DNA from: a virus
Taxonomy: Duplodnaviria > Caudoviricetes
Length of the DNA stretch: 64,000 nt
Virus record (IMG/VR): IMGVR_UViG_3300020434_000055
Reading direction: 5' to 3' (one strand)
A model generated the notes under the pieces. It was given only the letters and a program-made list of their open reading frames with translations. It was not told where the DNA came from and searched no databases. Below are positions 41,899-63,949 of the stretch, in pieces. A program made the position numbers and the translations under genes. Position 1 is the stretch's first letter; every line of letters begins with the position of its first letter.

Positions 41899-42582
41899 AT
41901 GGCAGTTAGTAGTGTTAATATAGGTAATATAGCAAACGACGGTACAGGAGATGATTTAAGAGAAGCGTTTATTAAAGTTAATAATAATTTCGCTGACTTA
42001 GAGGCTAGAAATCCTGAACAAACTACTGCCTCTAATTTATTACCCGACGATGCTAACACTAAAGGTTTATTTTCTACAGTAACAGATTTTGATTTAAAAT
42101 TTAAAAGTCTTAAAGCAGGTACTAACGTTAGTTTTAGTTCTGATGCTAATCAAATTACTATAACTTCTTCAGGTATTGTCAGTATTCAAGTTACTACTGA
42201 TGCAGGTAGTCTTACTCCAATAGGTAGTACAGGGTTAGCTAGGTTTCTTGGTGCTGGTGGTGTTCTCACAACTGGTGGAGGAACTGACGTAACTATAGAT
42301 TCAAGATTATCTAGAGAATCATCTCCATCTTTAGGAGGTACTCTAGACGCGGCGGCAAATAATATTAATAATGTAGGTACATTAACAGTTCAAAACGTAG
42401 ATGGACTTGTAAAAGGTATAGATGTTGGTAATATTGATTCTGTTGTAGGCTTTGATATGGGTGGAATTGTTCCTACTGCTGTTAGTAACCTAATGCAATG
42501 GTTTGAAAGTTTAAAACCACTTGATATGGGTACTCCAGCTTCTCCAAACGCAACAAACATAGATTTAGGCACTTTAGCATAA
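41899..42582 (+). CDS. Baseplate/fibre structural protein
   Basis: VNIGNIANDGTGDDLREAFIKVNNNF gp9/10-type N-terminus; SPSLGGTLD motif. Confidence 0.75.
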   Translation: MAVSSVNIGNIANDGTGDDLREAFIKVNNNFADLEARNPEQTTASNLLPDDANTKGLFSTVTDFDLKFKSLKAGTNVSFSSDANQITITSSGIVSIQVTTDAGSLTPIGSTGLARFLGAGGVLTTGGGTDVTIDSRLSRESSPSLGGTLDAAANNINNVGTLTVQNVDGLVKGIDVGNIDSVVGFDMGGIVPTAVSNLMQWFESLKPLDMGTPASPNATNIDLGTLA

Positions 42583-55036: not shown

Positions 55037-55065
55037 TTGACTTTTTGGTAAAGAGTTGTTATATT
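55037..55065 (+). promoter_or_regulatory. Sigma70-type promoter of dnaJ-def-clpA operon
   Basis: TTGACT-17 bp-TATATT with TG extension. Confidence 0.75.
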
Positions 55066-55071
55066 ATTATT

Positions 55072-55923
55072 ATGGCAGACTATTATGATATATTAGGGGT
55101 TAAAAAAGGCGCTTCCCAACAAGATTTAAAAAAAGCATATAAAAAACAAGCGATGAGATATCATCCAGACAAGGGTGGAGACTCTAATAAATTTCAAAAA
55201 ATAAACGAAGCATACGATACACTTAAAGACCCTCAAAAGAAAGCCATGTATGACCAATTTGGTGCTACTGGTAATCAAGGACCTTATTCAAGAACATATT
55301 CAACTGAAGAGTTTGAATTTCCTAATGACATAGGAGATATTTTTAATCAATTCTTTGGTGGATCAAGATCACCGTTTACTCAAAGAAGACAAAGACAAAG
55401 AAATAAAGACATAGCAATTCAAACTCAAATAGATTTAGAAGATGTAATGAATGGTAAATCATTAATTGCAACATATACACTAACAAATGGTAAGCAACAG
55501 AGTGTAAACATTGATTTACCTCCGGGAGTAGAAACAAATACCACGATGAAATTTACAGGACTAGGAGATAATTTCATTCCAAGTATTTCTAGAGGTGATT
55601 TAATGGTAAGAATTAAAGTACGATCTCATTCAAGATGGCATAGAGATGGTGCAAATTTACATTGCGTAGAAAAAGTAAGTGTGTTTGATTTATTATTAGG
55701 AACTAAAAAGGAAATAACAACTGTAGATGGTAAAAAATTATCTATTACCATCCCTAAAGGATGTCAACCAGGTACAGTATTAAGTATTAGTGAACAAGGA
55801 CTACCAAGATTGCATGGCAGAGGCAAAGGTAACATCTATATGACAGTTCAAGCCGATATACCTAACATATCTGATCCAGAAATGTTAAAGCTTCTTCAAA
55901 GGATAAAATATGGAACTAATTAA
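55072..55923 (+). CDS. dnaJ: DnaJ-class II co-chaperone (CbpA-like, no Zn finger)
   Basis: DYYDILGV...YHPDKGG J-domain; G/F region; C-terminal domain with GDLMVRI and GLPRL..RGKGN. Confidence 0.93.
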   Translation: MADYYDILGVKKGASQQDLKKAYKKQAMRYHPDKGGDSNKFQKINEAYDTLKDPQKKAMYDQFGATGNQGPYSRTYSTEEFEFPNDIGDIFNQFFGGSRSPFTQRRQRQRNKDIAIQTQIDLEDVMNGKSLIATYTLTNGKQQSVNIDLPPGVETNTTMKFTGLGDNFIPSISRGDLMVRIKVRSHSRWHRDGANLHCVEKVSVFDLLLGTKKEITTVDGKKLSITIPKGCQPGTVLSISEQGLPRLHGRGKGNIYMTVQADIPNISDPEMLKLLQRIKYGTN

Positions 55924-56428
55924 ACACCCAAATGAATGGTTAGAGAAAAAAATAAAACCTTTCGACTGGGAAAATTTAGATTCAGAAAAAATTGAACAAG
56001 AAATGGTCTCTATTATGGAGGATAATAAAGGTATAGGTCTGGCGGCAAATCAAGTTGGGTTAGATGCAAGAGTTGTAACAATATTGCCAAAAAATATAAA
56101 AGGAATTACTAAATCTTTTGCAATTATTGATCCTACAATAGAACAAATAAGTCTTAATAAAATTGAAGATGTTGAAGGATGTCTTAGTTTTCCAAAATTA
56201 TGGTTAAAAGTTAGAAGACCAGACAAGGTTACTGTAAAATTTCTTGACAGTAAACAAAAAGAGTGTATAATGGACTTTAGTGGTTATGATGCAAGATGTT
56301 TTCTTCACGAATATGATCATCTGGAAGGAATAACGTTCGTGAGTCCTTTACGAGTTAGCAAATTAAGATTAGATATGGCAATAAAAAGACAACAAAAAAT
56401 AATAAAAGAGGAACAACAAAATGGTTGA
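55910..56428 (+). CDS. def: Peptide deformylase
   Basis: GIGLAANQVG, EGCLSFP, HEYDHLEG. Confidence 0.96.
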   Translation: MELIKHPNEWLEKKIKPFDWENLDSEKIEQEMVSIMEDNKGIGLAANQVGLDARVVTILPKNIKGITKSFAIIDPTIEQISLNKIEDVEGCLSFPKLWLKVRRPDKVTVKFLDSKQKECIMDFSGYDARCFLHEYDHLEGITFVSPLRVSKLRLDMAIKRQQKIIKEEQQNG

Positions 56429-58667
56429 GCCTAGCCAAGAACTCCAATTAGTTTTTGATAAAGCAGTTATAGATGCTAAAAAATTAAAGCATGAATATGT
56501 AACTGTTGAACACTTATTATTTGCAATGCTATGCACTGATAAATTTTCAAATATGATTAAAGGATTCGGTGCAGATGTTGACGATTTAAAAACAGAAGTA
56601 GAAAATTATCTTAAAACTAAATTAAAAACTATAACACTTGAAAATATTTCAAAATATAAACCAAAAAAGACAACAAGTGTAGAAAGAATTCTAAATAGAG
56701 CATTTACCCAAGTATTATTCAGTGGTAGAAGCCATATAGACATCTCAGACGTGTTTCTTAGCATGATGAGTGAAAAGAAAAGCTGGGCTTATTACTTTAT
56801 AATGAAGACCGAAATAAGCAAAGACAAGTTTCAAGACTATCTACACGCCGAAATGGAATCATTATATGAAGATGAAGTTGATCAATCCGCGGCAAAAAGA
56901 GCATTAGGTCTTTATACTACAAATTTAAACAATGAAGTTAAAAAAGAAAGAATAGATCCAGTTATAGGAAGAGTAGAAGAATTAAATTCTATAGCTTTAT
57001 CCTTAGGTAGAAGAACTAAAAATAATGTAATCCTAGTAGGAGATCCAGGTGTAGGAAAAACTGCTATTGCAGAAGGATTAGCATTTAATATTGAAAAGAA
57101 TACTTGTCCTGATTTTTTAAAAGAATATAAAGTGTATAATTTAGACATTGGTGGAATGTTAGCTGGTTCTAAATATAGAGGAGATTTTGAAGAAAGATTT
57201 AAACTTGTATTATCTGCTTTAAAAAAGAAAGGCAAAACAATTTGTTTTATAGATGAAGCACATAATATAAGTGGTGCAGGAGCAGGCGGAACTACAAATA
57301 GTAATGATTTAGCTAATTTATTAAAACCTGTATTAACTAAAGGTGATCTTAAAGTTGTAGCATCAACTACTTGGGAAGATTATAGAAAATATTTTGAAAA
57401 AGACAGAGCTCTAATGAGAAGATTTCAAAGAATTGTAATTGATGAACCAGATAAAGATACTACAGTTAAAATATTACACGGACTTAGAAAATACTATGAA
57501 AATTTTCATAATATTGCAATTACAGATCAAGCAATTAAAGAAGCAGTTAAAACTAGTGTCAAATATCAAACTGATAAAAAATTACCTGACAAAGCAATTG
57601 ATTTAATAGACTTGGCGTGTAGTAGATTTAATCTTAAAGACCCTACTGCTGAAAAAGTAATAGGTCAAGAAGAAATACAATATGAAGTAGCAAAAGCTGT
57701 GAAAATGCCTGTTGAAAACATTCAACAAAAAGAGTCTTCAGCACTTGCTAATTTAGATAAGAATATGAAGAGTGGTGTATTTGGACAAGACAAAGCAATA
57801 GAGTCTGTTATTGATAAAATTATGGTGGCACACGCAGGATTAAAAAGAGAAAACAAACCAATAGGATCATTTGTGTTCATGGGCCCAACAGGTTGTGGTA
57901 AAACAGAAACAGCAAAACAACTTGCAAATCATTTAGGTGTTAAATTAGTCAGATTTGATATGTCAGAGTATCAAGAAAAACACGCAGTATCAAAACTAAT
58001 TGGATCTCCTCCAGGATATGTTGGATTTGAAGAAAATACAGGATTGCTTATAACAAAATTACAAGAACATCCTAATTGCGTATTGCTATTAGATGAAATA
58101 GAAAAAGCACACCCTGATGTTAGTCAAATATTACTTCAAATAATGGATGAAGGAACTGTTATGGGTAATAATGGTAAAGAAGCAGACTGTAAAAATGTTA
58201 CATTAATTTTAACTACTAATTTAGGTGCAGATCAATTAGATAAAAACGTAATGGGATTCACTGACTCCTCATCTACTAGTGAATATGACGATAAAGAAAT
58301 GAAAAAGTTCTTTCCACCAGAATTTAGAAACAGATTAGACGGAACTATTGTATTCCAAAAATTATCAAAAGAAACTCTAATAAAAATTGTTGGTAAGTTT
58401 ATGCTAGAGCTTAGATTGATGTTAAAAGACAAAGATACAGTACTAGAATTAACTGATGAAGCTATTGACTACCTAGTAGACAAAGGATATGATGATAAAA
58501 TGGGTGCTAGACCTATGCAAAGACTAATTGACAATGACATTAAAAGACCTCTATCCAAAGAATTGCTATTTGGTAAGTTAAAAAATGGTGGTAAAGCTAA
58601 AATTGACTCAAAAGATAAGGGTATTACTATCATCTACGAAGAAGCAGTGAAACTAATCAAAAGTTAA
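56421..58667 (+). CDS. clpA: ClpA AAA+ unfoldase
   Basis: Clp N-domain (HEYVTVEHLLFAM), two NBDs (GDPGVGKT, GPTGCGKT), no ClpB coiled coil, KNVMGF ClpP-docking loop, MGARPMQR. Confidence 0.95.
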   Translation: MVEPSQELQLVFDKAVIDAKKLKHEYVTVEHLLFAMLCTDKFSNMIKGFGADVDDLKTEVENYLKTKLKTITLENISKYKPKKTTSVERILNRAFTQVLFSGRSHIDISDVFLSMMSEKKSWAYYFIMKTEISKDKFQDYLHAEMESLYEDEVDQSAAKRALGLYTTNLNNEVKKERIDPVIGRVEELNSIALSLGRRTKNNVILVGDPGVGKTAIAEGLAFNIEKNTCPDFLKEYKVYNLDIGGMLAGSKYRGDFEERFKLVLSALKKKGKTICFIDEAHNISGAGAGGTTNSNDLANLLKPVLTKGDLKVVASTTWEDYRKYFEKDRALMRRFQRIVIDEPDKDTTVKILHGLRKYYENFHNIAITDQAIKEAVKTSVKYQTDKKLPDKAIDLIDLACSRFNLKDPTAEKVIGQEEIQYEVAKAVKMPVENIQQKESSALANLDKNMKSGVFGQDKAIESVIDKIMVAHAGLKRENKPIGSFVFMGPTGCGKTETAKQLANHLGVKLVRFDMSEYQEKHAVSKLIGSPPGYVGFEENTGLLITKLQEHPNCVLLLDEIEKAHPDVSQILLQIMDEGTVMGNNGKEADCKNVTLILTTNLGADQLDKNVMGFTDSSSTSEYDDKEMKKFFPPEFRNRLDGTIVFQKLSKETLIKIVGKFMLELRLMLKDKDTVLELTDEAIDYLVDKGYDDKMGARPMQRLIDNDIKRPLSKELLFGKLKNGGKAKIDSKDKGITIIYEEAVKLIKS

Positions 58668-58694
58668 CCTTAGGGCATATAGATAAATATCTAT

Positions 58695-59053: not shown

Positions 59054-59380
59054 ATGAAAATTAACGAATTTACAACTGTAGACAAACCCAAGTTAGATTT
59101 TAACTTATTAGATGATATACATTATTTCATGATTAATGATTCTAGCTTTTATAGAAAACATTACTTTCCAACAGTAGATAAAGCCAAACAAACAGGCGAC
59201 AATTCAACCTTACAACCTCTGATCGATACAGCAATTAATGAATATTTTAAAACATTTAGATTAAAAATGAGACCTGAAAATGTAATTAAAGATGAAGACA
59301 AACAATCATTAAAACAAAGAATTATAGACAGTGAAAAAGAAGAAGACGATATCGAGAAAGAGCGGAAAGAGAATGAATAA
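59054..59380 (+). CDS. Putative internal head protein
   Basis: N-terminus MKINEF; FYRKHYFP motif. Confidence 0.55.
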   Translation: MKINEFTTVDKPKLDFNLLDDIHYFMINDSSFYRKHYFPTVDKAKQTGDNSTLQPLIDTAINEYFKTFRLKMRPENVIKDEDKQSLKQRIIDSEKEEDDIEKERKENE

Positions 59381-59949
59381 TGAGATTAAAGGAGTTTACT
59401 GAAGCATTATCTAAACCTGCATCTTTCGCCTTTGGTCGAATGAATCCTCCTACCTTAGGACATCAAAAATTAGTTAATACTATCCAATCTCAACCCGGCG
59501 ATCATTTTTTATTTTTAACGCATACTCAAAATGCAAAGACAGATCCTCTAGCATTTGCTGAAAAATTGTTTTTTACTCAACAAATGTTTGCAGGAATTAA
59601 AATAGGTGACCCTAAAGTCAGAACAATAATCCAAGCCATGCAAAAATTAGAACAAATGGGGTATACCGATATCACATATGTGGCTGGTAGCGACAGGGTC
59701 AATGAATTTAGAGAATTATTAAACAAATATAATGGTCAAGAATATACATTTGATTCTATTAAAACCGTAAATGCAGGTACTAGAGACCCTGATTCACAAG
59801 GTGTAGAAGGTATGAGTGCAAGAATGGTAAGAGATTTAGCGGCTAGAGGTGATAAAATTGCTTTTATGAAAGCAATACCAGGTGATAGAAAATTAGCAAC
59901 CATGATGTATGACAAACTTAGAAGTAAATTAAATGTACCAGCAATTTAA
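59380..59949 (+). CDS. Cytidyltransferase-like nucleotidyltransferase (HxGH superfamily)
   Basis: SFAFGRMNPPTLGHQKL, DPLAFAEK, YVAGSDRV, AGTRDPDSQGVEGMSA. Confidence 0.85.
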   Translation: MRLKEFTEALSKPASFAFGRMNPPTLGHQKLVNTIQSQPGDHFLFLTHTQNAKTDPLAFAEKLFFTQQMFAGIKIGDPKVRTIIQAMQKLEQMGYTDITYVAGSDRVNEFRELLNKYNGQEYTFDSIKTVNAGTRDPDSQGVEGMSARMVRDLAARGDKIAFMKAIPGDRKLATMMYDKLRSKLNVPAI

Positions 59950-59960
59950 TAAATATACAT

Positions 59961-60167
59961 ATGGAAATAGCGAAATTAAAAAAATTAGCAGGCATTACGG
60001 ACTCAGAGGCACCCTCAGAAACACAACTTAATATTAGTCATACAGCACAGGCATTAAAAGACAGAGAAAAGGCATTAGGTTTAAGACCCGGTGATCCAGG
60101 CTGGTTTAAATTATGGTTTAGTAGACCATTAATGCAACAAAGTAAAGGATATAAAAGTAGAAAATGA
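59961..60167 (+). CDS. Small late protein
   Basis: MEIAKLKKLAGI...PGDPGWFKLWF. Confidence 0.65.
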   Translation: MEIAKLKKLAGITDSEAPSETQLNISHTAQALKDREKALGLRPGDPGWFKLWFSRPLMQQSKGYKSRK

Positions 60168-62290
60168 ACTTACGTGAATTCATAAAAGATTTTAGAGTTA
60201 ATTCACTAGCTGAATTTAGACAAGTTGTTACTCCACGAGATGAAAAACATTATAGAGAATTAATGAAACATCTTCATGCTATGGAATTAGACCCTGTAAA
60301 TAGAAGTGATCCTGATCTTATGGGAGAAATCCGAAGAAGAAGAATGGAATTAAGAGGCTGGGCTGAAAAAAATATAAAAAGAGAAGATACTGTTAAAGAA
60401 GTTCCAGGAATGACACAATCGGCTAATACACAGGCGGCAGGTGTGAATCATTTAGGATTACCATCAGATGATGTAGTAAAAGAAGATAACGAAGAATTTT
60501 CTTTTGGTCAAATAGCAAAAGCAAAAGCATATGCTAAATTATATGTAGATAATTATACAACCGCTGTAAAAAATATTGAAAGAATTGCAAAAGGATTATC
60601 AAGTCATCCAGATGTTGCTGATGCATTAAGAAAAGCAAACGAAGATGACGAACCACAAATAACAGATTATACAGATGTAGTTTCACCAGAAGAAATGGCA
60701 AAAATATGGTATTATGATGAAAAACACGGTAGAGCTAAAGACTTACAAGCACGATTTAAAACTTGGCAAGATTATTACAAGTCAGATGACTTTGAATTAG
60801 ATTTAGATCATTTAAGAAGTAAATTTGAAGATGACGATAAAGACGAATTAATGAAAAAATTTCTTGCTAAAGGTGGTAAAATTCAAAAATTAAAACCAGG
60901 AATTCCTAAAGGTGCAACTCATATGGATCGAAGAGGGGATTATAAGAAAAGTGACTTTCCTAATGTAAAATTTCAAAATAGAAAAGACGTAGAAAAATCA
61001 AAAAGTAAAGCTCTAAGAAGTACACCTATAACAAGTCCAATGAGTGATGAATCAGTAAAAGAAGATTCTGAAGCAAGTTTATTAGGTGCCGCACAGGCTT
61101 CTTTAAGTCATGGATTAGAACTAGCTGATGCTGTACTTAAAGATGATAATAATATGGCAAAAGTTATATCTTCTACTATTAAAGAAAATTGGCCTCCTTT
61201 AATTGATAAAATTCAAAATGTATATAAAACTGATTCTGCAAAAGAAGAATTATCTAAAATACTAAATTTTGATAAAAAAGATTATGGATTGAAAGAAAGA
61301 ATGCCAGCATCTATTATTAAACATAAACAAAAACTTGATATGATGACTGATAAAGAATTAGCAATCAGATTTCAAGACAAAGATGAAAACACACTACGTC
61401 ATATGGCTTGGAGACATGGTTACGGTAAAATGAGTTCACACTATTGGGATAGAGTTCAAGCAGGTAAACAAGAAACAACTGAAGATTTAGATCATCTAGG
61501 ATTATCAATAAAAAAAGAAGATGATGGCGGTAGAGCTCAACAGGCATACAAATTAGCAAGAGATCAAAAAGTTGATTATGCCAATATAATGTTTCGTGGT
61601 AAAGAAATAGATCATAATAGCATAGACTATGACATGAAGGATTTTAGTGATATGATATTTGAACTACATGGAGCAAAATATATAGATGGCACACCTTTAA
61701 CTGATGAAGAATTAGAAGAATTTGAAAAAACAGATGAACTTCTTGATTGGGTTGCTGAGGATTATGCAACACAAGGAGAATCAGTTAAAGAAGAAGCACC
61801 ATTTGGAACAGGAATGGATTTAGTTAGAATGGCTGTATTTAGAAAATTTATATCAGCAGAAGAATATGTAAATTTTGCAAAAGAATTAAAAACAGCAGGT
61901 GAAGAAGTTGCTAATAGTGAACAGTATGCAGATTGGCCTGATGGAGAAGGCTTTGGTTCATCTGATGGAAACTTTGCAATTAGAGATTTAATGAGTACAG
62001 CAGGATACGAATTTGATGACAATGATACAAGTGGTAGATTTGTTGTAACTAAAATGCCAAAAAAATTACAAAAATTAGGTATAACAAATGCAAGAATGAA
62101 ACAACCTGAATTACCTCTTAAACAAGAAGGGGATAGTGATGGAGTCCAACCTGCTGATTTAAAAAGAATGGGTCTTTCAACTCCTAAAGCATATGTTCAT
62201 AAAGATGGACGAACAGTAATGATTAATAAAAAAGATTTACAAAAATATCTTAAAAAAGGGTGGCAAAAATCTAGTTTAAGAGCAGAGTAA
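60164..62290 (+). CDS. Large modular acidic protein, putative internal head polyprotein
   Basis: MNLREFI N-terminus; unrelated small modules separated by (S/T/V)VKE-type sites. Confidence 0.65.
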   Translation: MNLREFIKDFRVNSLAEFRQVVTPRDEKHYRELMKHLHAMELDPVNRSDPDLMGEIRRRRMELRGWAEKNIKREDTVKEVPGMTQSANTQAAGVNHLGLPSDDVVKEDNEEFSFGQIAKAKAYAKLYVDNYTTAVKNIERIAKGLSSHPDVADALRKANEDDEPQITDYTDVVSPEEMAKIWYYDEKHGRAKDLQARFKTWQDYYKSDDFELDLDHLRSKFEDDDKDELMKKFLAKGGKIQKLKPGIPKGATHMDRRGDYKKSDFPNVKFQNRKDVEKSKSKALRSTPITSPMSDESVKEDSEASLLGAAQASLSHGLELADAVLKDDNNMAKVISSTIKENWPPLIDKIQNVYKTDSAKEELSKILNFDKKDYGLKERMPASIIKHKQKLDMMTDKELAIRFQDKDENTLRHMAWRHGYGKMSSHYWDRVQAGKQETTEDLDHLGLSIKKEDDGGRAQQAYKLARDQKVDYANIMFRGKEIDHNSIDYDMKDFSDMIFELHGAKYIDGTPLTDEELEEFEKTDELLDWVAEDYATQGESVKEEAPFGTGMDLVRMAVFRKFISAEEYVNFAKELKTAGEEVANSEQYADWPDGEGFGSSDGNFAIRDLMSTAGYEFDDNDTSGRFVVTKMPKKLQKLGITNARMKQPELPLKQEGDSDGVQPADLKRMGLSTPKAYVHKDGRTVMINKKDLQKYLKKGWQKSSLRAE

Positions 62291-63231
62291 TGAAAATAAG
62301 ACAATTCTACATAGCATCTGAAGATACTTTAACAAAAGGACAAAAAAAGAAAAAAGAAAAATATGTTAAAGGCATGAAGAAAGGTGCAAAAGATTTCAAA
62401 AAAAGATACGGTGACGACTATAAATCAGTAATGTATGCTACTGCTACAAAAATGGCTAAAGAAAACACAAATGAAAGTCCTATAGAACAAGATAGAGATA
62501 ATCCTATTGCAAAACCATATGTAGATACTCCAGAGTGGAAAGCTCTACACGATATGGATGATAAAATTATTGACGCATACATCAAACATAAAGAAGAATC
62601 AGTTGAAGAAGATCAAATTCCAAGTAATATGCCAGGTGGCATTGGAGACTATGCTAGAGAAATAGCAACAGGCAAACTTGTAAGAATAGTTGACTATACA
62701 GATGATGACGAAGGCATTTACACAATATCTTACGGTGATGGTAAAGGTGAAACAGATGTAGTAGCGAAAGATTTAAAATTTAAGGACCCTACTTCTTATT
62801 GGTCCGATGAAGAAACAACAGAAGGAGCTAATTTAAATCCTTATTTCTTAACTAAAAAAGAATTTGATGGTAAAATGAGAGACGTTTGGGATTTTCCAGA
62901 TGGCTATGGAGATGAAGACGACAGTCCTTATCTTTCAAACTTTTCAATGAGAGATGTATTAAATTCATTAGGTTTAGATCCTAATTTCGAAGATGCAGGA
63001 CCTATTGAAATTAATAAATTTATTAATATTACAACTCAATGGTTAAAGAAAAATATTAATAAACCTTCAGCAGAAGTTCCTACAACAGTTGATAAAAGTG
63101 GGGGCGGTGCTACAATGATAGGTGGTGGAAAACCAGAAGGTTACGAAAATAAAGTCATAATGGGATTCAATCAATTCGCACGTAGTATCAAACAAAAATA
63201 TCCTAAAGTTACGCATATAGGAATTGCGTAA
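62290..63231 (+). CDS. Modular protein, putative internal head protein
   Basis: MKIRQF N-terminus; KKEKYVKGMKK...YGDDYKSVMYATATKMAK module; ESVEE/ETTE linkers. Confidence 0.6.
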   Translation: MKIRQFYIASEDTLTKGQKKKKEKYVKGMKKGAKDFKKRYGDDYKSVMYATATKMAKENTNESPIEQDRDNPIAKPYVDTPEWKALHDMDDKIIDAYIKHKEESVEEDQIPSNMPGGIGDYAREIATGKLVRIVDYTDDDEGIYTISYGDGKGETDVVAKDLKFKDPTSYWSDEETTEGANLNPYFLTKKEFDGKMRDVWDFPDGYGDEDDSPYLSNFSMRDVLNSLGLDPNFEDAGPIEINKFINITTQWLKKNINKPSAEVPTTVDKSGGGATMIGGGKPEGYENKVIMGFNQFARSIKQKYPKVTHIGIA

Positions 63232-63237
63232 AATTCA

Positions 63238-63804
63238 ATGTTACTTACAGAAATAGATGGTCAAGAGCCAGTGAACAAACCAATAGTCTATGTAGATTTG
63301 GATGGTGTATTAGCAGACTTCTTTGGTGGAGTAGAAAAACTATATGGTGTTGATCATTGGAAACAATTAGTATCAGATAAAACTAAAGATCTTAAAATGG
63401 AAGTAATAAACAAAATTCAAGGTACAGATTTTTTTGCAACATTACCTAAATTCCCAACTGCTGATCAATTACTTGCTATTGTTAAAGAATATACAGGGGG
63501 CACATTTTCAATTTTATCATCTCCTTTAAGAGGTGATCACCAAAATTCTGCAAATCATAAAAAGACTTGGATAAGTCAAAATATAGAAGCACCTGCTGAA
63601 ATTATTATTACTGGACGGAAAGAATCATATGCAAAAGACAAAAGAACAGGTACTTCTAATATACTAATTGATGATAGACCTAAAAATCTTGATCGCTTTA
63701 AGGCGTCAGGAGGTTATGGTATTTTATATCAAGCTAATAGAAATCCGGTAAGTAAAGTAAAAATGGAGTTGGAGCAATATGCCAAAATTTACGGGGATCA
63801 ATAG
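63238..63804 (+). CDS. HAD-family 5'(3')-deoxyribonucleotidase-like protein
   Basis: VYVDLDGVLADF, ILSSP, KKTWI, NILIDDRPKNL...GGYGILY. Confidence 0.85.
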   Translation: MLLTEIDGQEPVNKPIVYVDLDGVLADFFGGVEKLYGVDHWKQLVSDKTKDLKMEVINKIQGTDFFATLPKFPTADQLLAIVKEYTGGTFSILSSPLRGDHQNSANHKKTWISQNIEAPAEIIITGRKESYAKDKRTGTSNILIDDRPKNLDRFKASGGYGILYQANRNPVSKVKMELEQYAKIYGDQ

Positions 63805-63949
63805 AGCTTATTCAAGCGGTAAACCTGACAAGAGATCTTCACAAGAAGAACGTGACAGATTAATGAAAGAATTCCTTGCCAAAGGTGGCAAAATACAAAA
63901 AATTAAATCTAAGATAACAAAACAAATGTTAGATAGAGGTAAATTATAA
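63779..63949 (+). CDS. Small protein with SutA-like RNAP-binding motif; not in the ORF track
   Basis: GGAG SD; MPKFTGINRAYSSGKPDKRSSQEERDRLMKEFLAKGGKIQKIKSKITKQMLDRGKL*. Confidence 0.65.
   Translation: MPKFTGINRAYSSGKPDKRSSQEERDRLMKEFLAKGGKIQKIKSKITKQMLDRGKL

What the first reader, a model, noticed from the sequence alone, without database searches (positions are those of the whole stretch)
60164..63231. Polyprotein-like cassette arrays with repeated ESVKE linkers conserved at DNA level
Unrelated 40-100-aa modules are separated by DTVKE, DVVKE, ESVKE (twice), ETTE and ESVEE. These fit T4 gp21-type cleavage after hydrophobic-X-Glu. The junction DNA is nearly identical: GAATCAGTAAAAGAAGA (61049), GAATCAGTTAAAGAAGA (61778), GAATCAGTTGAAGAAGA (62596). 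Inference: a payload system in which small effectors are strung together, packaged, cut into separate proteins by the prohead protease, and swapped by recombination at the linkers.
Basis: partly seen in the sequence, partly recalled or inferred. Interest (0 to 1): 0.8.

Follow-up and report, generated by a model that had tools for sequence, protein, structure and literature searches.

The report
Phage head-cargo polyproteins, cleavable shuffling linkers
Two late genes of an uncultured giant marine T4-like phage are strings of small, freely swapped protein modules joined by a short linker that fits the cutting rule of the phage's head-maturation protease, so they are probably loaded into the capsid, cut into separate small proteins and delivered with the DNA, though no cutting or packaging has been measured.

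Summary
ORF-A (60164-62290, 708 aa) and ORF-B (62290-63231, 313 aa) are chains of about 10 and 4 independent modules.

- **Module family.** The modules recur in any order in at least 415 metagenomic protein clusters. None was found in 50,697 cultured-phage records.
- **Junction rule.** Nearly every module is preceded by hydrophobic-x-Glu. The special form ES(A)VxE[D/E/G] occurs 48 times in 148 relatives, against 1.5 expected.
- **N-terminal leader.** The leader M-K-hydrophobic-x-E-F/I is the same junction at the N-terminus. It resembles the T4 propeptides of Alt (MELITE), gp24 (MAKINELLRE) and the internal proteins (MKTYQEFIAE).
- **Timing.** T4-type late-promoter motifs (NATAAATA) lie 12 nt before ORFs 58695 and 59961, which head the operon.
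- **Relatives.** Related genomes encode a gp21-type prohead protease and a Gp23 capsid protein with L-A-E|A at the T4 cleavage column.
- **Module mobility.** Orthologues differ by module transposition, gain and loss. The breakpoints of the transposed module lie in linker microhomology.
- **A host target.** One module resembles the RNA-polymerase-binding domain of SutA.
- **DNA identity.** The identity of the three linkers in the window is mostly codon bias.

Packaging and cleavage are inferred, not shown. The scan has noted the same kind of system on other DNA (other giant T4-like phages). I found no paper describing it.

The parts
58682..58689 (+). Late-promoter-like motif GATAAATA, 12 nt before the ATG of ORF 58695
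   Evidence: RATAAATA occurs 12 times in the window against 28.9 expected, 11 of them on the + strand. ATAAATA lies within 35 nt upstream of a start codon in 12 of 16 cases (p about 1e-13), including the structural operons at 41899, 42621, 45771 and 47148. NATAAATA is the late promoter of T4-like cyanophages (PMC2984593).
58695..59045 (+). First gene of the late operon, 116 aa, a likely virion protein
   Evidence: Matches phrog_13657 (9e-15) and phrog_14467 'virion structural protein' (6e-6).
59054..59380 (+). 108-aa ORF with the leader MKINEF
   Evidence: It is one of only 4 of 85 window ORFs with the leader, all four lying within one late operon at 59054-63231.
59380..59949 (+). 189-aa cytidylyltransferase-like ORF with the leader MRLKEF
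   Evidence: Matches phrog_3041 at 8e-45. The same domain is fused to pool modules in relatives: P0128 (1170 aa) and the 1020-aa ORF of G005 at 315644.
59948..59955 (+). Late-promoter-like motif AATAAATA, 12 nt before the ATG of ORF 59961
59961..60167 (+). 68-aa ORF that overlaps the ORF-A start (ATGA). Its N-terminus carries LKKLAGI.
   Evidence: The motif occurs once in the window's + frames. It occurs once among the 445 ORFs of G005, at the C-terminal end of the scaffold protein.
60164..60214 (+). ORF-A leader MNLRE|F ... SLAE|F (residues 1-17)
   Evidence: Fits the leader pattern M[KRNHQ]-hydrophobic-x-[EDQ]-[ILFV]. That pattern is found in 60 of 150 relatives against 0.5% expected. L-A-E precedes module A.
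60215..60400 (+). Module A (residues 18-79), ending IKRE-DTVKE
   Evidence: Alignment starts at residues 11-20 and ends at 71-80. It also occurs as a stand-alone 71-aa protein, P0067.
60401..60484 (+). 23-residue scar plus DVVKE (residues 80-107), remnant of a lost module
   Evidence: The 98%-identical P0151 has 151 further residues here. L002 carries a module of about 200 residues at this position.
60485..60838 (+). Modules B and C (residues 108-225)
   Evidence: Boundaries; found in other orders.
60839..61063 (+). Module D (residues 226-300), SutA-RBD-like, ending MSD-ESVKE
   Evidence: PF20661 matches 15 of 16 family members, best 2e-6, below the Pfam cut-off. A profile of the module hits PDB 7f0r_G (SutA) at E = 5e-5, with the Gly-Gly pair invariant.
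61064..61297 (+). Module E1 (residues 301-378), ending LKE-R
61298..61483 (+). Module E2 (residues 379-440), the commonest module, ending ETTE
   Evidence: Found in about 80 of 150 relatives. Nine columns are invariant, including the first Met-Pro. AlphaFold2 gives a four-helix domain with pLDDT about 90 and disordered flanks.
61484..61522 (+). Linker DLDHLGLSIKKED (residues 441-453)
   Evidence: HLGLP...K(K)ED recurs at three joints in the orthologues.
61523..61792 (+). Module F (residues 454-543), ending QG-ESVKE; transposed relative to the orthologues
   Evidence: Its first 24 nt are identical in the window and in L004, but the neighbours differ. The breakpoints lie in ATAAAAARAGAAGAT and in GAATCA / AAAGAAGA. 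The tail SES(A)VxED is conserved across the family.
61793..62113 (+). Module G1 (residues 544-650)
   Evidence: A folded alpha/beta unit in AlphaFold2. The preceding residues 533-544 and residues 648-660 have pLDDT below 50.
62114..62290 (+). Module G2 (residues 651-708) and the stop codon, which overlaps the ORF-B start
62290..63231 (+). ORF-B: leader MKIRQF, then four modules with joints at ESVEED (62596) and SDEETTEG (about 62800)
   Evidence: Its modules occur in 70 of the 262 proteins retrieved as ORF-A relatives. Alignment starts and ends pile up at residues 51-60, 101-120 and 161-180. Orthologues are 376 and 419 aa with different module sets.
63779..63949 (+). Stand-alone 56-aa copy of the SutA-like module D
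   Evidence: PF20661 at 3e-5. It is 83% identical in DNA to 60842-60895 over 54 nt.

Best explanation
ORF-A and ORF-B are late-expressed capsid-cargo polyproteins of a giant (about 330-355 kb) marine T4-like phage.

**Proposed mechanism**
1. A short N-terminal propeptide (M-K/N-hydrophobic-x-E|F) addresses the chain to the prohead core. This would work like the T4 capsid targeting sequence and the Alt and gp24 propeptides.
2. During head maturation the phage's gp21-type (S77) prohead protease cuts after Glu in the hydrophobic-x-Glu linkers that precede almost every module.
3. This releases folded proteins of 6-14 kDa that stay in the head and enter the cell with the DNA.
4. At least one module (D) probably binds the beta protrusion of host RNA polymerase.
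5. Because every bead carries the same short in-frame linker, the linkers also serve as microhomology for recombination. Modules can then be moved, gained and lost without breaking the protein.

**Status of each step**
- Shown here: modularity, shuffling, the junction rule, the leader, the late-promoter motifs, disordered linkers around folded modules, and the protease and capsid cleavage motif in relatives.
- Inferred: targeting, cleavage, retention in the head, injection and the effector roles.
For: **Modules are independent units.**
- 415 clusters match at E <= 1e-3. Module order is arbitrary: F-B-D-G1-E2, E2-G1-C-D-B-E1-G2, A-E2-G2-B-G1 and others.
- Single modules also exist as stand-alone leader-tagged ORFs with a late motif at -12 (L018, 119 aa).

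**Junction rule.** [LIVM]-x-E ends within 4 residues before the module start in:

| Module | With the motif |
|---|---|
| E2 | 50 of 64 |
| G1 | 21 of 29 |
| A | 10 of 10 |
| three further modules | 6 of 6, 4 of 4, 8 of 8 |
| background | 7.4% |

. The form ES(A)[VI]xE[DEGA] occurs 48 times against 1.5 +/- 1.1 in shuffles, between many different module pairs. P3 varies among V, I, L and M, and P2 varies freely, so the constraint acts on the peptide.

**The leader is the same junction at the N-terminus.**
- Module D has MKFTE|FDTPEKK at the N-terminus and ..MQE|YDTPEKK internally.
- Module A has PIKE|YRNVV, SLAE|FRQVV and SVTE|YRNVV.

**T4 precedents.**
- Read from the T4 record: gp24 MAKINELLRE, Alt MELITELFDE, gp22 MLKEQLIAE.
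- Alt is cut at ITE-6 (PMC5694885).
- The CTS is MKTYQEFIAE (PMC8442874).

**Late motifs** lie 12 nt before ORFs 58695 and 59961, and at -11 or -12 before nine E2-containing ORFs elsewhere.

**Relatives carry the protease and a matching capsid site.**
- PF03420 protease in G001, G005, G006 and G007.
- Gp23 capsid protein with L-A-E|A at the T4 E65|A66 column.
- Scaffold protein with three copies of E-I-A-E.
- Between portal and protease, G005 has a basic 131-aa ORF and a 66-aa ORF that both start with the leader.

**Structure.** AlphaFold2 gives folded E2, G1 and G2 with linkers at pLDDT below 50.

**Site distribution.** Hydrophobic-x-E is scarce inside the module cores of E2, G2, G1 and A (152 observed against 222 expected overall). 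ORF-B has a single such site, and it is in the ESVEED linker.

**Module D** resembles the SutA RNAP-binding domain.
Against: - No proteomic or biochemical datum exists for any family member. None is in a cultured phage, so cleavage and packaging are untested.
- The window itself does not contain the head genes. The protease is seen only in related contigs.
- The commonest P3 residue is Val, whereas the T4 sites read here and the predicted capsid and scaffold sites of the relatives have Leu or Ile.
- Some orthologous linkers have Thr at P3 (ESTKED).
- Module G2 is preceded by DG[LV]Q|P, not by the rule.
- Module F contains more internal hydrophobic-x-E than expected.
- Enzymes with the leader, a nucleotidyltransferase-like ORF and in L002 a 5' nucleotidase, are not obvious capsid cargo.
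- Counts across homologous sequences are not independent.
- Most modules are acidic (ORF-A pI 5.6), unlike the basic T4 internal proteins.
Confidence: 0.5

Rival explanations
1. Uncleaved beads-on-a-string proteins. The chains act intact as polyvalent late proteins, packaged or cytoplasmic. The conserved linker is kept because it is the in-frame recombination joint and a flexible acidic spacer, not because a protease reads it.
For: - The breakpoints of the transposed module lie in linker microhomology.
- The Ser codon of the linker is TCA in 10 of 12 distinct contexts against 35% overall, a DNA-level signal.
- Phage N4 vRNAP and several polyvalent proteins are delivered unprocessed (PMC5512222).
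- SPN3US relatives differ in whether homologous head proteins are processed at all (PMC5694885).
Against: - The constraint is on the peptide class: V, I, L or M at P3, Glu fixed at P1, P2 free, and Val and P2 codons vary.
- The same rule holds at N-termini, where no upstream module can recombine.
- The 151-residue deletion did not use the linkers.
- Microhomology of 8-15 nt does not need a fixed Glu.
Confidence: 0.25
2. Prohead core or scaffold filler. The chains are addressed to the prohead and cut, but the pieces are degraded or expelled like T4 gp22, gp67 and gp68. They would serve assembly rather than act in the next host.
For: - The leader is shared with the small ORFs in the gp67 position between portal and protease.
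- The 68-aa ORF upstream of ORF-A carries the scaffold protein's C-terminal LKKLAG motif.
- Many modules are acidic, like the T4 core proteins.
Against: - The modules are well-conserved folded domains with invariant residues, which expelled filler would not need.
- One module resembles an RNA-polymerase-binding domain.
- Module content varies widely between close relatives, which fits accessory cargo better than assembly parts.
Confidence: 0.12
3. Internal translation starts. Modules are made separately from one mRNA by initiation at in-frame Met codons behind Shine-Dalgarno-like linker DNA.
For: Module E2 always starts with Met, even when internal, and is often preceded by E-G-G (GAA GGN GGN ATG). 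Some database entries start at the Met inside G1.
Against: - Most modules (A, B, D, F, G2 and the ORF-B modules) have no Met at their start.
- ESVKED linkers have no nearby start codon.
- The entries that start at internal Met are mostly contig-edge fragments.
Confidence: 0.05
4. Compositional artefact. Glu/Lys-rich low-complexity spacers in an AT-rich genome give similar peptides and DNA by chance.
For: Strong codon bias explains most of the 17-mer identity within the window.
Against: The motif is 30-fold enriched over residue shuffles of the same proteins. It sits specifically at homology-defined module boundaries.
Confidence: 0.02

Closest known systems
Phage T4 internal proteins IPI, IPII, IPIII and Alt: capsid targeting sequence plus processing by prohead protease gp21 (Mullaney and Black 1996; PMC9026906, PMC5694885, PMC8442874)
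   Same: - A short N-terminal propeptide with a hydrophobic-x-E-F/L core, followed by unrelated mature parts.
- The hydrophobic-x-Glu cut rule.
- Late expression.
- A gp21-family protease and a Gp23-family capsid protein in the same phage lineage.
- A diverse, fast-changing cargo set.
   Different: - In T4 each gene gives one cargo protein with one or two cuts. Here up to about ten unrelated modules sit in one chain, each with its own linker.
- There is no sequence homology to the T4 internal proteins or to Alt.
- Most modules are acidic, not basic.
- The usual P3 residue is Val.
- Nothing has been measured.
Polyvalent proteins of phages and conjugative elements (Iyer, Burroughs, Anand, de Souza, Aravind 2017; PMC5512222)
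   Same: - Many unrelated domains in one polypeptide, with extensive mosaicism.
- Predicted delivery with the invading DNA.
- Predicted separation of the domains by proteolysis.
   Different: - Polyvalent proteins are built around known enzymatic hub domains and an embedded zincin-like peptidase. None was found here.
- The modules here are small (50-110 aa) and of unknown fold.
- The proposed protease acts in trans, as the head-maturation enzyme.
- The linkers are standardised.
Inner-body and ejection proteins of phiKZ, 201phi2-1 and SPN3US, cut at several sites by a gp21-related protease (PMC5694885, PMC9026906)
   Same: Giant phages whose head proteins carry several Glu-ending cleavage motifs. 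Their propeptides are thought to target proteins into the prohead.
   Different: - Their motif has a small residue at P3 (S/A/G-x-E).
- The cuts remove long propeptides rather than separate strings of independent modules.
- They belong to a different phage lineage.
- Cleavage there is shown by mass spectrometry.
SutA RNA-polymerase-binding domain (PF20661; PDB 7f0r; PMC9300723)
   Same: Module D and the stand-alone ORF 63779 share the helix plus Gly-Gly plus strand segment that binds the beta protrusion in SutA.
   Different: - Scores are below the Pfam cut-off in the window.
- The acidic N-terminal region and the wedge loop of SutA are not evident.
- The host and its polymerase are unknown.

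Membership tests
T4-type capsid-targeted, gp21-processed head cargo (IPs, Alt) | Short N-terminal propeptide ending in hydrophobic-x-Glu | tested here: met
   ORF-A has MNLRE|F and SLAE|F. ORF-B has MKIRQF..IASE. The pattern occurs in 60 of 150 relatives against 0.5% expected. T4 Alt, gp24 and gp22 N-termini were read from the T4 record.
T4-type capsid-targeted, gp21-processed head cargo (IPs, Alt) | Phage encodes a gp21/S77 prohead protease and a Gp23-type capsid protein with a matching maturation site | tested here: met
   Met in relatives only. PF03420 hits G001 (1e-25), G005, G006 and G007. PF07068 hits at 1.5e-97, with L-A-E|A aligned to T4 E65|A66. The window does not reach the head genes and no whole genome is held.
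T4-type capsid-targeted, gp21-processed head cargo (IPs, Alt) | Late transcription together with the head genes | tested here: inconclusive
   Promoter-like NATAAATA motifs lie 12 nt before ORFs 58695 and 59961 and before the structural operons. No transcript data are available.
T4-type capsid-targeted, gp21-processed head cargo (IPs, Alt) | Protein present in virions and cut after the propeptide Glu | not testable with these tools
   There is no cultured relative and no proteomic data.
T4-type capsid-targeted, gp21-processed head cargo (IPs, Alt) | Sequence homology to the T4 internal proteins or Alt | tested here: not met
   No Pfam or PHROG hit to internal proteins or Alt. tblastn against 50,697 phage records found no match.
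Polyvalent proteins (Iyer et al. 2017) | Two to fifteen unrelated domains in one phage polypeptide with mosaic architectures | tested here: met
Polyvalent proteins (Iyer et al. 2017) | Presence of the hub domains, above all the zincin-like MPTase or other embedded peptidases and known effector enzymes | tested here: not met
   No Pfam domain other than a weak SutA-RBD match in ORF-A, ORF-B and the nine largest relatives.
phiKZ-type processed inner-body proteins | Cleavage motif S/A/G-x-E | tested here: not met
   P3 at the joints is V, I, L or M.
SutA-RBD (PF20661), module D only | Match above the Pfam gathering score, with the helix and the two glycines that contact the RNAP beta protrusion | tested here: inconclusive
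   The window scores 17.8-23.7 bits against a cut-off of 29.3. Some orthologues carry a precomputed PF20661 hit. A profile of the module against PDB 7f0r_G gives E = 5e-5 over SutA residues 61-103. K-G-G is invariant. G78 and G79 are needed for binding in SutA (PMC9300723).

The most novel reading that the evidence does not exclude
Giant marine T4-like phages use a standardised linker that is both protease-cleavable and recombination-competent, together with a five-residue address peptide. This would work as a plug-and-play system. Any small protein module, whether an RNA-polymerase binder, an enzyme or a capsid-protein mimic, can be spliced in frame into a cargo polyprotein. The polyprotein is loaded into the head, cut into separate proteins and injected. 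The result would be a combinatorial, rapidly reshuffled arsenal of dozens of pre-made proteins, a bacterial-virus counterpart of viral polyproteins and of exon shuffling.
Probability: 0.4. Interest if true: 0.85.

Novelty: new variant of a known kind. Interest (0 to 1): 0.68.

Why it matters
- **More injected proteins per gene.** If the chains are cut in the head, one late gene would deliver about ten different ready-made proteins into the next host. This greatly enlarges the known repertoire of injected phage proteins, which in T4 is three internal proteins plus Alt.
- **A source of dark matter.** It would explain part of the protein 'dark matter' of abundant marine jumbo phages. More than 400 clusters have no Pfam family and no structural match.
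- **A rule for fast evolution.** The fixed linker gives a simple, testable rule for how phages shuffle cargo at high speed.
- **Practical use.** The linker could predict the start and end of hundreds of unknown small proteins for expression and screening. Examples are RNA-polymerase binders and candidate anti-defence factors.
- **A cargo design.** It also suggests a natural design for multi-cargo loading of T4-type capsids.

Tried and rejected
- **Cultured relatives.** blastn and tblastn of the locus against 50,697 cultured-phage records gave no match for ORF-A. Only the Lys-rich N-terminal module of ORF-B matched, in a few Synechococcus phages next to a 'cytitidyltransferase' gene. No cultured model exists.
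- **Family scans.** Pfam and PHROG scans of both ORFs and of the nine largest relatives gave nothing except a weak SutA-RBD match.
- **Language-model search.** The ESM Atlas search gave no usable hit.
- **Fold searches.** Searches with the E2 and G1+G2 models found no match in PDB at E <= 1e-3. In the AlphaFold DB clusters (searched with the G1+G2 model only) the only match was a family member.
- **Whole-protein alignment.** One MAFFT alignment of shuffled fragments to half of ORF-A misplaced the fragments. I dropped it for per-module alignments, so no full-length model was made.
- **Exact T4 late promoter.** TATAAATA occurs only 3 times in the window and not before the structural genes. The working motif here is NATAAATA, mostly GATAAATA.
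- **DNA-level conservation in the window.** Rejected as an independent signal, because codon bias accounts for most of it.
- **gp67 homology.** The small ORF after the portal gene could not be confirmed as a gp67 homologue. It matches only phrog_13986, of unknown function, so that argument is positional.
- **Site depletion inside modules.** Depletion of hydrophobic-x-E inside module cores is suggestive only. Members of a module are homologous, and module F goes the other way.
- **Literature.** A search for phage cargo polyproteins found no description.


Full report
**Setting.**
- The window is a one-strand, 32% GC stretch of a T4-like myophage. It carries ribonucleotide reductase, DNA ligase, a clamp loader, baseplate and fibre genes, and a dnaJ-def-clpA group.
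- No whole genome is held. The exact ORF-A protein lies on contigs of up to 355,620 bp.
- A related complete genome with terminal repeats, G005, is 328,149 bp at 31.8% GC. This is therefore an uncultured marine jumbo T4-like phage.

**The observation.**
- The stretch holds two ORFs joined by an overlapping stop and start: ORF-A (60164-62290, 708 aa) and ORF-B (62290-63231, 313 aa).
- The 17-mer GAATCAGTWRAAGAAGA occurs three times against 0.01 expected.
- With GAA at 93% of Glu codons, AAA at 92% of Lys codons and GTT/GTA at 93% of Val codons, identical peptides give nearly identical DNA. Within the window only the shared Ser codon TCA (30% of Ser codons) is informative.

**The modules are real units.**
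- A full HMMER search of 1.84 billion cluster representatives found 415 proteins at E <= 1e-3 and 45 at E <= 1e-30, from 60 to 1537 aa long.
This defines modules A, B, C, D, E1, E2, F, G1 and G2.
- In the relatives these modules occur in any order and in any subset.
- ORF-B's four modules occur in 70 of the 262 proteins retrieved as ORF-A relatives. Both ORFs therefore draw on one module pool.
- Single modules also exist as stand-alone small ORFs (P0067; L018).
- None of this is found in 50,697 cultured-phage records. Pfam, PHROGs, PDB and the AlphaFold DB clusters give no function.

**Orthologous loci are not collinear.**
- The usual order in close orthologues is A-F-B-C-D-E1-E2-G1-G2. In the window, F sits between E2 and G1.
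- Other orthologues carry an extra module of about 150-200 residues after A, a 115-residue insert between G1 and G2, or an insert inside E1. The last two begin right after L-K-E|F and V-K-E|F.
- ORF-B orthologues are 313, 376 and 419 aa with different module sets.
- The first 24 nt of F are identical in the window and in L004, while the upstream DNA differs. The breakpoints fall in ATAAAAARAGAAGAT (I-K-K/R-E-D) on the left and in GAATCA / AAAGAAGA on the right.
- One event does not use a linker. The 23 residues between DTVKE and DVVKE are the scar of a 151-residue deletion between two Gly-Met pairs.

**The junction rule.** I looked at what precedes each module across the family, whatever the upstream neighbour.
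- [LIVM]-x-E ending within four residues of the module start is found for E2 in 50 of 64 distinct contexts, G1 in 21 of 29 and A in 10 of 10.
- For three modules that are not in the window it is found in 6 of 6, 4 of 4 and 8 of 8 contexts. The background is 7.4%.
It lies between many different module pairs.
- P3 varies among V, I, L and M, P2 is free and P1 is Glu, so selection acts on the peptide.
- G2 is an exception (DG[LV]Q|P).
- Across IMG/VR loci the linker Ser codon is TCA in 16 of 19 cases and in 10 of 12 distinct contexts, against 35% overall (p about 8e-4). The linkers therefore also share DNA ancestry or a DNA-level constraint.

**The leader.**
- Four ORFs within one late operon at the end of the window (59054, 59380, 60164, 62290), and no other of 85 ORFs, start M-[KRN]-[IL]-x-[EQ]-F.
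- Sixty of 150 relatives do so. So do 26 of 43 E2-containing ORFs with complete N-termini in IMG/VR, against 0.5% expected from position-wise composition.
- The leader is the N-terminal form of the junction. Module D follows MKFTE|F at N-termini and ..MQE|Y inside chains. Module A follows PIKE|Y, SLAE|F or SVTE|Y.
- T4 proteins read from the T4 record start MAKINELLRE (gp24), MELITELFDE (Alt) and MLKEQLIAE (gp22).
- Alt loses six residues at ITE-6 (PMC5694885). The internal-protein CTS is MKTYQEFIAE (PMC8442874). In the CTS, positions 4 and 7 serve targeting and positions 8 and 10 serve processing (PMC9026906).

**Timing and the protease.**
- RATAAATA is depleted in the window: 12 copies against 28.9 expected, 11 of them on the coding strand.
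- ATAAATA lies within 35 nt upstream of a start codon in 12 of 16 cases. These include the structural operons and ORFs 58695 and 59961, which head the operon holding ORF-A and ORF-B.
- NATAAATA is the late promoter of T4-like cyanophages (PMC2984593).
- Contigs holding orthologues or E2 proteins encode a PF03420 prohead protease. They also encode a Gp23 capsid protein whose L-A-E|A aligns with the T4 E65|A66 cut and a scaffold protein with three copies of E-I-A-E.
- Between portal and protease, G005 has a very basic 131-aa ORF and a 66-aa ORF. Both start with the leader.

**Structure and function hints.**
- AlphaFold2 gives a confident four-helix E2 domain (pLDDT about 90) and folded G1 and G2.
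- The linker stretches 533-544 and 648-660 and the E2 flanks fall below pLDDT 50.
- Module D and the stand-alone ORF 63779 resemble the SutA RNA-polymerase-binding domain. PF20661 matches 15 of 16 members below its cut-off. A profile of the module against PDB 7f0r_G gives E = 5e-5 over SutA residues 61-103, and the Gly-Gly pair is invariant. Those glycines are needed for binding the beta protrusion (PMC9300723).

**Reading.**
- The best-supported model is a capsid-cargo polyprotein. It is addressed by a T4-like propeptide, cut by the prohead protease at hydrophobic-x-Glu linkers, and reshuffled through those same linkers.
- The main rival is that the chains stay intact and the linker is kept for recombination and spacing.
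- Cleavage, packaging and injection are inferences. The Val at P3, the Thr variants, the acidic modules and the leader-tagged enzymes are points against the model.

**Relation to what is known.**
- The system works like the T4 internal-protein/Alt system but is not homologous to it.
- It fits the idea of polyvalent proteins (PMC5512222) but lacks their hub domains and embedded peptidase.
- I found no paper describing it.
- Earlier notes of this scan describe the same kind of system in other giant T4-like phages with other linkers. Those are unchecked AI notes and do not count as evidence here.

Noticed in passing
window 59961-60167: The 68-aa ORF translationally coupled to ORF-A begins MEIAKLKKLAGI. 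The motif LKKLAG[IL] occurs once among the 445 ORFs of G005, at the very C-terminus of the scaffold protein. G001's scaffold protein similarly ends in IKRLAGI. This may be a capsid-shell docking peptide borrowed from the scaffold.
   Followed up: partly
L002:11270-11542; G005 319012-319263 (in L106): Small leader-tagged ORFs whose next residues (ATAGATSAGNIATV) copy the N-terminus of the mature major capsid protein just after its predicted L-A-E|A cut. They may be capsid-protein mimics or protease decoys. They lie just beyond the window's end in relatives.
   Followed up: no
family proteins P0003, P0015, P0027, P0079, P0087 and others: Many family members end in a conserved C-terminal tail, YESKLxxMLNQRLK, directly after the SLRAE end of module G2. 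ORF-A stops exactly at that Glu and lacks the tail. It could be a second (C-terminal) address or propeptide, as in T4 Alt.
   Followed up: no
window 61298-61303 and relatives: Module E2 starts with an invariant Met-Pro even when internal. It is often preceded by Glu-Gly-Gly (GAA GGN GGN ATG), which reads like a Shine-Dalgarno sequence plus a start codon. The module may once have been a separate gene, or may still start internally.
   Followed up: partly
window 59380-59949: A nucleotidyltransferase-like ORF (PHROG 'cytidyltransferase', with an HxGH-type motif) carries the leader. In relatives it is fused to pool modules in proteins of 1020-1170 aa. In L002 the 5' nucleotidase next to ORF-B also starts MKFFEV. 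Enzymes may therefore be part of the cargo pool.
   Followed up: partly
window, whole: The octamer RATAAATA is depleted more than two-fold and is almost confined to positions 12-34 nt before start codons on the coding strand. This gives a clean map of late transcription units. Exact TATAAATA is rare.
   Followed up: yes
window 55037-58667: A dnaJ-like, peptide-deformylase-like and clpA-like gene group with a sigma-70-type promoter lies directly upstream of the late cargo operon. A link to the handling of the polyproteins is not excluded.
   Followed up: no
L002:6500-6720: The extra module in the 915-aa orthologue contains a Pro-Ala-Gln repeat tract (PAQAPAQ...), a low-complexity spacer that is absent from the window.
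   Followed up: no
G005 203534-203929 (L101:3534-3929): A very basic 131-aa ORF with the leader and a late motif at -26 lies between the portal and the prohead protease. It is the best candidate for a T4-style basic internal protein in this lineage.
   Followed up: partly
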